From Octopus vulgaris (taxonomy: Eukaryota), in NCBI GenBank assembly GCA_951406725.2, contig OX597823.1, forward strand, positions 88,784,001 through 88,848,000: 64,000 nucleotides of DNA, read 5' to 3'. A model generated the notes under the pieces. The model did no database searches and had not been told where the DNA came from. It was given only the letters and a program-made list of their open reading frames with translations. Shown one piece after another: positions 30,535 to 43,165 of the stretch (within the stretch, counting starts at the first letter, position 1; the number at the start of each line of letters is the position of its first letter). The position numbers and the translations under genes are program-made.

Positions 30535-30538
<4 letters not shown>

Positions 30539-31915
30539 GAATATTATAGACGAGTTAGATCAATACTAAAAACAGAGCTCAATGCTAAAAACAAGATAAT
30601 AGGTATCAACACTTTAGCTGTCCCAGTTATAAGTTACAGCTACAATATCCTTAACTGGACACGAAATGAACTGTCCAAAATAGATAGGAAAACAAGAAAA
30701 ATACTGACAGGATCTAGGATGCATCACCCAAAATCTGACATAGAAAGACTATATATACAACGTATAGAAGGTGGTAGAGGCCTTATACAGCTGGAAAACT
30801 ACTATAAAATAACCACCATAGGACTGCAAAAACACCTACTTCAGAAGGAAGGAAAACTGATCCAGATAGCAGCAAAACACGAGCAAAACAAAAAACTGTT
30901 CTCAGTATTTAAGGAAGCTGACAAATACAAACAAGAAATCATACCCCTAATAAACACAAAGAAGAAGAAGAAGATGATGAAGAAACAACAAAAGCTATAA
31001 AACAAATGAAATCCAAACTAAAAATAGAACAGCAACGAGCCATGATAAAACGATGGCAAGAAAAACCCCTTCATGGTAAATACTGCACTAAACTAAACGC
31101 AAAAAAAATAGACAAAGAAAAATCCCAGCAATGGTTGAGAAGCTCAGGACTCAAAGCAGAAACAGAGGGATTTTTAATTGCAGCACAAGACCAAAGCCTC
31201 CCCACCAGAAATTACCAAAAACATGTAATGAAAAGAAATATTACAAGTAACTGCAGAATATGTGGAGATGGACAAGAAACAATAAATCATATTATCTCTA
31301 GCTGCCCAGTCCTGGCTAAGAAGGAATATGTTCACAGACATGACAGAGTTGGAACCTACATACATTGGAAGCTATGCCAACATTATGGAATAACAACAGA
31401 AAAAAGATGGTATAGGCACACACCAGAAAAGGTCACAGAAAACAAGAAAGCAACCATACTCTGGGATATGCCGATACACACAGATAGAGAAATTAAGGCC
31501 AACAGACCAGATATAGTTGTCAGAGATCATGAAGAAAAAAAATGCTTTCTAATTGATGTATCAATACCGGCAGATGACAACGTGTCCCTAAAAGAGGTGG
31601 AGAAACTCTCAAAATACAAAGACCTGGAAATAGAGGTAACTAGAATGTGGAACCTGAAAACAGAAACAATTCCTATCATAGTAGGTGCATTAGGCATGAT
31701 AAAAAAATATTCAGACAAATACATAACAAAAACACCAGGACTTACAAACACATATAACATACAGAAAATTGCACTACTAGGCACTGCACACATCCTACGC
31801 AGAACACTTTCCATACAATAACCATCAGAGCATCACAACAAATCACAGCACATACCCAAGGCACACAGAGCTGCGCTCGGTAGTGAAGTGAAAGCACGCT
31901 ATAAAAATAAAACTA

Positions 31916-32536: not shown

Positions 32537-33790
32537 GGATCTTTTCTAAAAGATGGACAGAATTTTCTACTTAACTAAATAATTTGAAACTTCGTATACT
32601 GGTAGAATGTCAAAAGAAAACATTAATTTCAATTATTTTTTTTGAGAAAAATGTATTTTGTAACTTTTACGTAGTTTAATTCTTCGAATTTTAACCAATC
32701 ATATTCTGGTAGAATGTGTCAAAAGAAAACATTAATTTCAATTAGTTTTTTTGAGAAAAATGTATTTTGTAACTTTTACGTAGTTTAATTCTTCAAATTT
32801 TAACCAATCATATTCTGGTAGAATGTGTCAAAAGAAAACATTAATTTCAATTAGTTTTTTTGAGAAAAATGTATTTTGTAACTTTTACGTAGTTTAATTC
32901 TTCGAATTTTAACCAATCATATTCTGGTAGAATGTGTCAAAAGAAAACATTAATTTCAATTAGTTTTTTTGAGAAAAATGTATTTTGTAACTTTTACGTA
33001 GTTTAATTCTTCGAATTTTAACCAATCGTATTCTGGTAGAATGTGTCAAAAGAAAACATTAATTTCAATTAGTTTTTTTGAGAAAAATGTATTTTGTAAC
33101 TTTTACGTAGTTTAATACTTCGAATTTTAAGCAATCGTATTCTCTGTTTTGAGCTCAATTCATATCTGCCGTGTTATTCATCCTTATCACTGTCTTCTGT
33201 TTTCTGTCTTCAAAGGCTTCTCGCATGTTTATTTCAATGTCATCCCTGACTTACGGAACGATTACCTGTGTGTGTGTTTTTGTTGTGTATGTGTGTCCGT
33301 GTGTGTGTTTGTTGTGTGTGTGTTATTGTTGTGTATGTGTGTGTGTGTTTTTTTGTTGTGTATGTGTGTGTTTGTTGTGTGTGTTATTGTTGTGTATGTG
33401 TGTGTGTTTTTGTTGTGTATGTGTGCGTGTGTGTGTGTGTTATTGTTGTGTATGTGTGTGTGTGTTTTTGTTGTGTATGTGTGCATGTGTTGTGTATCTC
33501 TTAAATCGATGAATTTTGTCGCCCAATAAAAATATTAGCGATATCAAAGTTAAAAAAATATCGTTAATATTTTTATTGGGCGACGAAATTCATCGATTTA
33601 AGAGATACAGAACACACGCACACATACACAACAAAAAAAACACACAACACACACACGCAACAATAACACACACACACACACACATACACATACACAACAA
33701 ACACACACACACACAACAAACACACACACGCGGATCTTTTCTAAAAGATGGACAGAATTTTCTACTTAACTAAATAATTTGAAAAGATCC
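32537..33790. mobile_element. non-autonomous TIR element, Merlin-like
   Basis: Termini ggatcttttc / gaaaagatcc; 8-bp TSD gctatttt at 32529-32536 and 33791-33798. Confidence 0.75.
32599..33142. repeat. about 109-bp tandem repeat, five copies, inside the MITE
   Basis: ctggtagaatgtgtcaaaagaaaacattaatttc...ttaaccaatcatatt repeated. Confidence 0.93.
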
Positions 33791-38369: not shown

Positions 38370-38383
38370 TATATATATGTTTG

Positions 38384-38414
<31 letters not shown>

Positions 38415-38929
38415 TCAATATAGGGTGGCAAAAAAAATTTTGTAGAATTCTTTTGCCACCAGCGGCCTAGTGGGAAAAAATTAAATAGTCATAAACCATT
38501 TTTACGTTCAACATCACAATCAAGGAACGGCCATAATAGGCCATTCACCCACTAGAAATAACAGCCAAAAGCTTTAACCGCAAAATAACATTAATTCCGT
38601 AAACCAGGAGAAAATTGAAAAACATTTACCCTGTAATTTCTTAGACGATGCACCGTTTCATCTACCGTTTAATGGTAAACTAACCTGATTAAATTAAATC
38701 AAGCCAATCCACCATAGGCTGGTGGCAAAAGAATTCTACAAAATTTTTTTTGCCACCCTATATTGATTAATTATGAATTTTCTGGTTAGTTCCGTAATGG
38801 AATCGGTGGCTTATATTTATTTGCTGCCGATAAATTTGGCGCGAGTGCGACGATTTGATAATTTTAGGTCAGATATTGCCGAGGTAGCAAGAGGAATGCC
38901 TCGTGAAAAATATCTGTTCCGACTTGGCT

Positions 38930-39036
38930 ATTTCTTACTGATGAGTCTAAGGGCCTATGGTGGATTGGCTTGATTTAATTTAATCAGGTTAGTTTACCAT
39001 TAAACGGTAGATGAAACGGTGCATCGTCTAAGAAAT
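38930..39036 (+). ncRNA. type I hammerhead ribozyme, copy 1
   Basis: atttctta-CTGATGA-gtcta-[hairpin]-tagat-GAAA-cggtgcatcg-TC-taagaaat; predicted cleavage after C39028. Confidence 0.88.
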
Positions 39037-39420
39037 TACAGGGTAAATGTTTTTCAATTTTCTCCTGGTTTACGGAATTAATGTTATTTTGCGGTTAAAG
39101 CTTTTGGCTGTTATTTCTAGTGGGTGAATGGCCTATTATGGCCGTTCCTTGATTGTGATGTTGAACGTAAAAATGGTTTATGACTATTTAATTTTTTCCC
39201 ACTAGGCCGCTGGTGGCAAAAGAATTCTACAAAATTTTTTTTGCCACCCTATATTGATTAATTATGAATTTTCTGGTTAGTTCCGTAATGGAATCGGTGG
39301 CTTATATTTATTTGCTGCCGATAAATTTGGCGCGAGTGCGACGATTTGATAATTTTAGGTCAGATATTGCCGAGGTAGCAAGAGGAATGCCTCGTGAAAA
39401 ATATCTGTTCCGACTTGGCT

Positions 39421-39527
39421 ATTTCTTACTGATGAGTCTAAGGGCCTATGGTGGATTGGCTTGATTTAATTTAATCAGGTTAGTTTACCATTAAACGGTA
39501 GATGAAACGGTGCATCGTCTAAGAAAT
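39421..39527 (+). ncRNA. type I hammerhead ribozyme, copy 2
   Basis: Identical to copy 1; predicted cleavage after C39519. Confidence 0.88.
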
Positions 39528-39911
39528 TACAGGGTAAATGTTTTTCAATTTTCTCCTGGTTTACGGAATTAATGTTATTTTGCGGTTAAAGCTTTTGGCT
39601 GTTATTTCTAGTGGGTGAATGGCCTATTATGGCCGTTCCTTGATTGTGATGTTGAACGTAAAAATGGTTTATGACTATTTAATTTTTTCCCACTAGGCCG
39701 CTGGTGGCAAAAGAATTCTACAAAATTTTTTTTGCCACCCTATATTGATTAATTATGAATTTTCTGGTTAGTTCCGTAATGGAATCGGTGGCTTATATTT
39801 ATTTGCTGCCGATAAATTTGGCGCGAGTGCGACGATTTGAAAATTTTAGGTCAGATATTGCCGAGGTAGCAAGAGGAATGCCTCGTGAAAAATATCTGTT
39901 CCGACTTGGCT

Positions 39912-40018
39912 ATTTCTTACTGATGAGTCTAAGGGCCTATGGTGGATTGGCTTGATTTAATTTAATCAGGTTAGTTTACCATTAAACGGTAGATGAAACG
40001 GTGCATCGTCTAAGAAAT
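39912..40018 (+). ncRNA. type I hammerhead ribozyme, copy 3
   Basis: Identical to copy 1; predicted cleavage after C40010. Confidence 0.88.
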
Positions 40019-40136
40019 TACAGGGTAAATGTTTTTCAATTTTCTCCTGGTTTACGGAATTAATGTTATTTTGCGGTTAAAGATTTTGGCTGTTATTTCT
40101 AGTGGGTGAATGGCCTATTATGGCCGTTCCTTGATT

Positions 40137-40200
<64 letters not shown>

Positions 40201-40582
40201 TGTATGTATGTATGTATGTATGTATGTATCTATGTACGTGATTGGTTTTTTTTTGCTGGACTGTATATAATTACAATTCTACATGAAACTGAAAGTTTAG
40301 CGTACATATTAATTTTTAGGAAGAAAATTTGACAATAAATGCGAAGTTTTGGCTTGCTCGCTTTGATCATACTTCGTGATGGTGACGTGCAGGCTAAATC
40401 TTCGAATTCACTGCCAACCTCTTCTGAGTAAAAGTTCAAATATTAAGTATCCAAAGTCAACTTTAATAACACCTGACCCCTGAACCCCATTTCAAACCTC
40501 TACATAGATTATCTTCTTATACGTGTTGTCTAAGATAAAGTATCAAACATGTTCTAAACTATGCACAAAATATGAGAAGATA

Positions 40583-43165
<2,583 letters not shown>

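What the first reader, a model, noticed from the sequence alone, without database searches (positions are those of the whole stretch)
38721..39288. The whole repeat unit folds into strand-specific RNA helices
Seen: helices 38721-38757 (ggtggcaaaag/ttttttgccacc), 38803-38830 (tcggtggc/gctgccga), 38870-38916 (cagatatt/aatatctg enclosing cgaggta/tgcctcg), 39070-39082 with 39276-39288, and 39117-39124 with 39198-39205. The non-Watson-Crick positions in these helices are G-U on the plus strand and would be A-C on the minus strand. Inference: selection acts on plus-strand RNA structure rather than DNA palindromy, consistent with a branched viroid-like monomer.
Basis: partly seen in the sequence, partly recalled or inferred. 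Interest (0 to 1): 0.7.

Follow-up and report, generated by a model that had tools for sequence, protein, structure and literature searches.

The report
Ribozyme RNA circle copied into genome
This 491-base repeat is one copy of a widespread non-coding jumping element whose plus-strand RNA fold is kept by compensating changes across diverged relatives, and the shape of its insertions suggests that a predicted self-cutting, likely circular RNA is copied from two fixed start points by a borrowed Penelope-type reverse transcriptase.

Summary
Strand preference holds for G-U over A-C tolerance (48:23) and a plus-only type I hammerhead. It does not hold for folding z-scores, which are similar on both strands.

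The unit is a genome-encoded non-LTR retrozyme, not a viroid. Hammerhead-pattern searches of the 2.8-Gb genome give 425, 1404 and 850 matches, all with an unusually long stem II.

Insertions carry the Penelope signature: two outward-facing arms in (TA)n. One arm starts at unit position ~131, the other at ~237 (41 mixed pairs, none alike, among 83 insertions). Both arms share a haplotype (60 of 60 tags), and one variant unique in the genome sits in all five units of both arms of one insertion. This points to one monomeric, likely circular RNA reverse-transcribed from two start sites.

Cleavage, circular RNA and the partner enzyme were not shown. Verdict: new variant of a known kind.

The parts
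38407..40141 (.). Whole retrozyme insertion: inverted left arm plus a tandem right arm of 2.9 units
38407..38719 (-). Inverted arm (313 nt), 100% identical to 38953-39265; outer end at start site B (unit position 237), abutting (TA)n
38718..40141 (+). Tandem arm, 491-nt period; outer end at start site A (unit position 131), abutting (TA)n; 2-nt overlap with the inverted arm at 38718-38719
38930..39036 (+). Type I hammerhead, copy 1: stem I 38930-38937 with 39029-39036, core 38938-38944, 68-nt stem II domain 38945-39012, GAAA 39013-39016, weak stem III with palindromic loop, predicted cleavage 39028/39029
   Evidence: Rfam RF00163 22 bits, below gathering 34, E 0.031; covariation of stems I and III; cleavage inferred
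39421..39527 (+). Type I hammerhead, copy 2 (predicted cleavage 39519/39520)
39912..40018 (+). Type I hammerhead, copy 3 (predicted cleavage 40010/40011)
39029..39519 (+). Cleavage-to-cleavage monomer (predicted circular RNA), 37% G+C
39520..40010 (+). Second full monomer
38957..39000 (+).
39070..39288 (+).
39160..39265 (+). 106-nt 'tail' between start site A (39159) and start site B (39265), containing the 39212-39248 hairpin
38721..38757 (+).
38803..38830 (+).
38870..38916 (+).
38370..38409 (.). (TA)n target repeat, left flank
40140..40236 (.). (TA)n then (TATG)n target repeat, right flank

Best explanation
The repeat is a non-coding, hammerhead-bearing retroelement (a non-LTR retrozyme) whose plus-strand RNA fold is conserved by compensating changes, and whose predicted self-cleaved, likely circular 491-nt monomer would be reverse-transcribed by a borrowed Penelope-like enzyme. 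Steps: (1) transcription through an array (inferred). (2) Hammerhead cleavage to monomers, likely helped by pairing of two weak, palindromic stem III loops in multimers (predicted from anatomy and literature). (3) Ligation to a circle (inferred from other retrozymes). (4) A Penelope-like RT/endonuclease cuts both strands of a (TA)n repeat and primes two cDNAs on one RNA molecule, one at site A and one at site B, 106 nt apart in single-stranded linkers of one branched domain. The fixed sites, their strict pairing and the TA targets are shown; the enzyme is inferred. (5) Each cDNA runs round the template one to several times, and the two 5'-truncated cDNAs are joined head to head (anatomy shown; rolling inferred). 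Some long arrays were later enlarged by local duplication (pattern shown in one array).
For: Structure: 57 pairs, 91.4% of 1264 cells paired, 17 pairs with two-sided change against 10.3 +/- 1.8 shuffled (0/500) and 4-9 in slid controls. G-U:A-C is 48:23 clade-level at pairs that are WC in the window (71:29 with extra helices), against 28:43 for the same transitions at 180 unpaired columns and 7:11 among single-unit mutations. Hammerhead: stem I of 4 bp or more in 55 of 58 distinct variants though not constrained by the search, with A-U/G-C exchange; stem III covaries. The core occurs on the plus strand only. Anatomy: 41 A+B, 0 A+A, 0 B+B among 83 insertions; 169 of 186 arm 3' ends beside (TA)n; the same signature appears in families down to about 65% identity. 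Single template: arms agree at 60 of 60 common tags in 25 loci; divergence 0.39% within an arm, 0.33% between arms, 0.97% between loci. One variant occurs five times in the genome, all in one insertion, in both arms. 150 of 153 unit junctions are exact, and the other 3 are single substitutions. A young autonomous RT+GIY-YIG family in the same genome leaves the same two-start, TA-targeted insertions.
Against: No run on record as RNA was listed, so expression and circularity are untested. The hammerhead scores below Rfam's gathering cut-off; stem III is almost unformed in the circular ensemble, and the active fold costs 3.9 kcal/mol. Folding z-scores do not favour the plus strand. 12 locus-restricted variants are present in only some units, one of them in this window (T at unit position 322 in 2 of 3 units), and the roughly 19-unit array L035/L036 shows repeating sub-patterns. 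Two of three variants tested genome-wide were not unique. No autonomous element with a pLTR homologous to the unit was found in 82 Penelope-type loci.
Confidence: 0.8

Rival explanations
1. The same non-autonomous Penelope-dependent element, but the template is a linear, uncleaved or partly cleaved multimeric transcript, or a linear monomer re-used by template jumping, with no covalent circle.
For: In vitro, an anole Penelope-like protein used unprocessed RNA and did not need hammerhead cleavage (PMC11167929, parts 1-2 read). Arm 5' ends are enriched at unit positions 1-25 (15 of 123, 6.3 expected, window chosen after the fact), and both arms of L047 stop exactly at the cleavage site, as a linear 5' end would give. 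Partly shared variants exist.
Against: A variant unique in the genome is fixed in five units on both arms, which needs a monomer bottleneck. Junctions have no added or lost bases in 153 of 153 cases, which template jumping would not be expected to give. A circle that opens during copying would also give L047-type ends.
Confidence: 0.12
2. A viroid-like RNA replicon that copies itself RNA-to-RNA and is only occasionally written into DNA.
For: Size, branched self-pairing and a hammerhead; many diverged subfamilies.
Against: No hammerhead core on the minus strand. Thousands of genomic pattern matches with Penelope-type ends, and near-identical DNA in runs of four organism labels, fit a genomic life cycle.
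Confidence: 0.05
3. A DNA-level satellite or fold-back element: the helices are DNA palindromes and arrays arise by unequal exchange, without RNA-level selection.
For: Both strands fold better than shuffles; one long array shows local duplication.
Against: G-U is tolerated and A-C is not, with controls going the other way. The hammerhead core is conserved while its stems covary. The outer ends are two different fixed internal sites, not identical terminal inverted repeats. Copies are dispersed over many contigs.
Confidence: 0.03

Closest known systems
Metazoan non-LTR retrozymes (coral, Mytilus, axolotl: PMC7229834; vertebrates: bioRxiv 10.64898/2026.07.22.740005)
   Same: Short non-coding tandem units of low G+C, a type I hammerhead in each unit, a highly self-paired predicted monomer, and co-occurrence with Penelope-like elements.
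   Different: Stem II domain of about 54-77 nt against about 4 bp in canonical animal hammerheads (PMC4209133 passage). The unit is longer than the ~170-400 nt circles of PMC7229834 but inside the 51-972 bp range of the preprint. The head-to-head two-arm anatomy, fixed start sites and TA targeting were not mentioned in the parts I read. Cleavage and circles were shown there, not here.
EN+ Penelope-like elements; Poseidon PAc of Anolis (PMC11167929; PMC8557442)
   Same: Inverted 5'-truncated arm next to tandem copies, a 'tail' at one end that is the distance between two RT start sites, AT-rich or microsatellite targets, and a hammerhead upstream of the start sites.
   Different: No ORF. The tail is 106 nt rather than 30-40. 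Arms hold many units of one short monomer. No sequence match to a pLTR of an autonomous element was found.
Non-autonomous Chlamys elements such as MRC1 (PMC8557442 passage)
   Same: Non-autonomous, multicopy head-to-tail insertions that depend on a Penelope-like element.
   Different: That clade lacks canonical hammerheads and its non-autonomous members share 3' sequence with autonomous families; here there is a hammerhead and no such match.
Hammerhead viroids (Avsunviroidae; recalled, not from a call)
   Same: Small, branched, self-paired RNA with a hammerhead.
   Different: Viroids have no DNA form and carry ribozymes on both polarities; this element is DNA-encoded with one polarity only.

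Membership tests
non-LTR retrozyme | Type I hammerhead in each tandem unit | tested here: met
   Core, three stems and NUH triplet in all three units; Rfam 22 bits, below gathering 34; covarying stems
non-LTR retrozyme | Short tandem unit, G+C under 45%, no ORF | tested here: met
   491 nt, 37% G+C; no ORF of 150 aa or more over the insertion
non-LTR retrozyme | Highly self-paired monomer, structure conserved | tested here: met
non-LTR retrozyme | Dispersed multicopy family in a genome that has Penelope-like elements | tested here: met
non-LTR retrozyme | Self-cleavage in vitro | not testable with these tools
   Only indirect: both arms of L047 end at the predicted site
non-LTR retrozyme | Accumulation as circular RNA | tested here: inconclusive
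   No run on record as RNA; contigs only
non-autonomous Penelope-like element | Inverted truncated arm adjoining tandem copies | tested here: met
   52 of 83 insertions have two arms
non-autonomous Penelope-like element | Tail at one end only (two RT start sites) | tested here: met
   41 A+B, 0 A+A, 0 B+B; 106 nt, longer than the published 30-40
non-autonomous Penelope-like element | Microsatellite or AT-rich target | tested here: met
   169 of 186 ends beside (TA)n
non-autonomous Penelope-like element | Sequence similarity to the pLTR of an autonomous partner | tested here: inconclusive
   None in 82 loci examined, apart from adjacent separate insertions; a small sample of 6136 endonuclease candidates
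autonomous Penelope-like element | RT plus GIY-YIG ORF | tested here: not met
hammerhead viroid | No DNA phase | tested here: not met
hammerhead viroid | Ribozymes on both polarities | tested here: not met
   Core motif on plus strand only
hammerhead viroid | RNA-to-RNA replication | not testable with these tools
   Needs stranded RNA data

The most novel reading that the evidence does not exclude
These insertions are a genomic record of how Penelope-type enzymes integrate. A dimeric RT holds one circular ribozyme RNA, primes both cut target strands at two structure-defined sites 106 nt apart (always one per site), and the two active sites chase each other round the circle until it opens or they stall. 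The branched domain and the long stem II would be the RNA handle that lets a sequence-unrelated circle capture the enzyme.
Probability: 0.5. Interest if true: 0.72.

Novelty: new variant of a known kind. Interest (0 to 1): 0.52.

Why it matters
That animal retrozymes spread by rolling-circle reverse transcription of circular RNA, using Penelope-like enzymes, is a published hypothesis. PMC7229834 (discussion) proposes it, and the 2026 preprint says the mechanism remains to be elucidated. Two internal RT start sites are known from one in vitro system (PMC11167929). This family joins the two: many young, haplotype-tagged insertions show strict pairing of the two start sites, one haplotype on both arms, and exact unit junctions. 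A 491-nt template with mapped start sites and a candidate enzyme in the same genome makes the mechanism directly testable. It also adds a hammerhead variant with a very long stem II that gathering-threshold Rfam scans miss. The folding observation alone is an expected property of retrozymes.

Tried and rejected
Rfam at gathering thresholds found nothing in the window.

Folding z-score as a strand test: rejected, both strands score alike. Covariation within the youngest subfamily alone: too little variation (23 locus-fixed substitutions).

RNA evidence: no RNA holder listed. Four runs guessed to be RNA hold contigs of the unit, but contigs show neither strand, ends nor circularity, and DNA is not excluded; not used as evidence. 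A joint that goes back at the unit junction is expected from tandem DNA and is no evidence of a circle.

Partner search: the 781-aa RT+GIY-YIG family has no similarity to the unit and a different 3' region made of short tandem repeats. The 811-aa family has the right insertion signature but no similarity and no canonical hammerhead. A Penelope-type fragment beside the array in L262 is separated from it by (TA)n and looks like a separate insertion. The protein search gave no clade or organism name of use.

Exact clustering of arm ends at the cleavage site: 2 of 123 at positions 1-3 (p 0.17), not significant; only the wider 1-25 window is. The earlier-findings search returned nothing. Rows dropped: 5 of 28 cluster representatives (same-locus or near-duplicate copies) were left out of alignment A2; loci cut by their ends were left out.

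Full report
Setting. The window lies in a 2.8-Gb genome of 227 contigs, rich in microsatellites. The finding sits in a 491-nt tandem repeat, 38718-40141 (2.9 copies), preceded by a perfect inverted copy of part of it, 38407-38719, and flanked by (TA)n on both sides. Units 1 and 2 are identical and unit 3 differs at two bases.

The observation. All five helices are present as described: 57 pairs, 51 Watson-Crick and 6 G-U. The circular monomer 39029-39519 folds at -145.1 kcal/mol against -113.5 +/- 5.9 for 60 shuffles, with 62% of bases paired. The reverse complement gives -91.2 against -72.2 +/- 4.4. Much of the raw difference is compositional (G 111, C 71, T 184, A 125). In 10 relatives the plus strand has the lower energy in 10 of 10, but z-scores overlap: plus -3.8 to -11.8, minus -4.0 to -10.3, with 20 shuffles each. 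Energy therefore shows structure, not strand.

Relatives. A DNA search gave 222 matches; the listed ones are 95-100% identical, and only 40 of 910 candidates were scored. Variants seen in contigs of three other organism labels guided pattern searches. These gave 425, 1404 and 850 matches to long-stem-II hammerhead patterns, with 0, 0 and 1 in the reversed controls. Only the first 100 places of each were listed, so my sample leans to contigs C1-C3. Clustering 120 long segments gave 28 representatives at 55-100% identity, of which 23 were aligned (A2).

Covariation and strand. 17 pairs change on both sides (shuffled 10.3 +/- 1.8, 0 of 500; slid controls 4-9). The tool warns that relatedness inflates such scores. 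RNAalifold alone recovers helices 1, 2 and 39117/39205, several further hairpins and hammerhead stem III, but not helix 3 or the long-range helix 4.

G-U appears in 25 columns and A-C in 14 (p 0.11). At clade level the counts are 48 to 23 (p 0.004), and with six further helices 71 to 29. The same transitions at 180 unpaired columns run 28 to 43, and single-unit mutations run 7 to 11. Locus-fixed variants in helices are 6 compatible, 1 A-C and 3 other mismatches. G-U tolerance is thus specific to the plus strand and to inherited changes.

Ribozyme. Each unit has a type I hammerhead (Rfam RF00163, 22 bits, gathering 34, E 0.031), missed at gathering thresholds. Its stem II domain is 68 nt, with a 19-pair extension. 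Among 58 distinct variants, stem I has 4 or more pairs in 55 and stem III covaries. The first pair of stem II is often non-canonical, so only 30 of 58 had 3 or more pairs from the base. Core and triplet were fixed by my pattern and are no test. No core occurs on the minus strand. Stem III is weak with a palindromic loop, and the active fold lies 3.9 kcal/mol above the minimum. PMC4209133 (passages) describes this arrangement as favouring cleavage by dimers in multimers and sparing monomer circles.

Insertion anatomy. Of 83 deduplicated insertions of the closer subfamilies, 41 have two outward-facing arms with one 3' end at unit position about 131 (site A) and the other at about 237 (site B). 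None has A+A or B+B. 11 have one canonical and one odd end, 30 have one detectable arm, and 1 is unclassified. A looser count including distant families gave 58 A+B and none alike among 71 two-armed cases, with 169 of 186 ends beside (TA)n. This matches Penelope-like elements: an inverted truncated arm and a 30-40-bp tail at one end (PMC8557442, passages), the tail being the gap between two internal RT start sites, with both DNA strands cut and extended (PMC11167929, parts 1-2 of 4).

One template. Arms agree at 60 of 60 common polymorphic tags in 25 loci. Divergence is 0.33-0.39% within insertions and 0.97% between them. 15 sample-private variants are fixed in all covering units (6 across both arms), and 12 are partial. 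Of three tested genome-wide, one is unique to its insertion and present in five units on both arms; the other two recur at one or two further loci. 150 of 153 unit junctions are exact and none has an insertion or deletion. This is what repeated copying of one monomer gives, as proposed for retrozyme circles (PMC7229834, parts 3-4 of 6 and passages; PMC7761336, passages). Limits: gene conversion after insertion could homogenise arms. The window's own array has a partial variant, and one long array shows local duplication. Both arms of L047 end exactly at the cleavage site, which fits either a linear 5' end or a circle opened during copying.

Partner. The genome has many GIY-YIG retroelement copies (148 matches of 150 scored from 6136 candidates). 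One family at 99-100% identity (2543 candidates) encodes an 811-aa RT with a CxxxxxCxxC linker and a GIY-YIG domain, Neptune/Nematis-like by the motif described in PMC8557442. It inserts in (TA)n as two arms with start sites about 40 nt apart. It shares no detectable sequence with the unit, so it is a candidate only. The 2026 preprint (parts 1-3 of 5 read) found pLTR homology for 24 of 57 frog retrozyme families, so a missing match is not unusual.

Novelty. The class is known. Searches for hammerhead ribozyme with octopus, retrozyme with octopus, and hammerhead, Penelope, rolling circle and inverted together listed no paper on this family or on two-armed retrozyme insertions. The library lacks most subscription papers, and I saw no supplements, Repbase or Dfam. 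Verdict: observation confirmed; RNA-level, plus-strand selection supported; viroid wording too strong; a new variant of non-LTR retrozyme whose insertions make a published mechanism testable. Interest 0.52.

Noticed in passing
L304:2053-5798 (G000:C6, near 17.95 Mb) and L293-L312: Very young Neptune/Nematis-like element with two overlapping open frames (495 and 811 aa, stop to stop), two start sites about 40 nt apart, (TA)n targets, and no canonical hammerhead by my pattern.
   Followed up: partly
L131-L141: A second young RT+GIY-YIG family with an intact 781-aa frame, often an upstream frame of 300-480 aa, and a 3' region of short tandem repeats; ends not mapped.
   Followed up: partly
L181-L210: 36 matches to a short-stem-II hammerhead pattern; 27 of the 30 loci fetched have no profile match to this unit, so they appear to be a separate family, several near the start of contig C3.
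   Followed up: no
L047:3318-3319: Both arms of this insertion end exactly at the predicted cleavage site, giving a perfect inverted junction.
   Followed up: partly
L035-L036 (G000:C10, 17.47-17.48 Mb): An array of about 19 units with variants recurring in sub-patterns, which suggests local duplication after insertion.
   Followed up: partly
window 39841: Unit position 322 is T in two units and the family-majority A in the third; not explained by a single pass over one template.
   Followed up: partly
L261:2125-6427: A retrozyme insertion lies directly in the (TA)n at the end of a two-armed autonomous element, showing the shared target.
   Followed up: yes
window 30536-31821 (+): Two overlapping frames that look like the C-terminal RT and restriction-like endonuclease part of a non-LTR retrotransposon, among (AAT)n repeats (label recalled, not tested).
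   Followed up: no
window 40681-42393 (-): Fragments that look like an RTE-type LINE (label recalled, not tested).
   Followed up: no
window 32595-33143: 109-bp tandem repeat, 5.1 copies, 97% matches.
   Followed up: no
L147:3204-3256: A 53-nt piece of the unit ending near start site A, upstream of a decayed GIY-YIG element.
   Followed up: no
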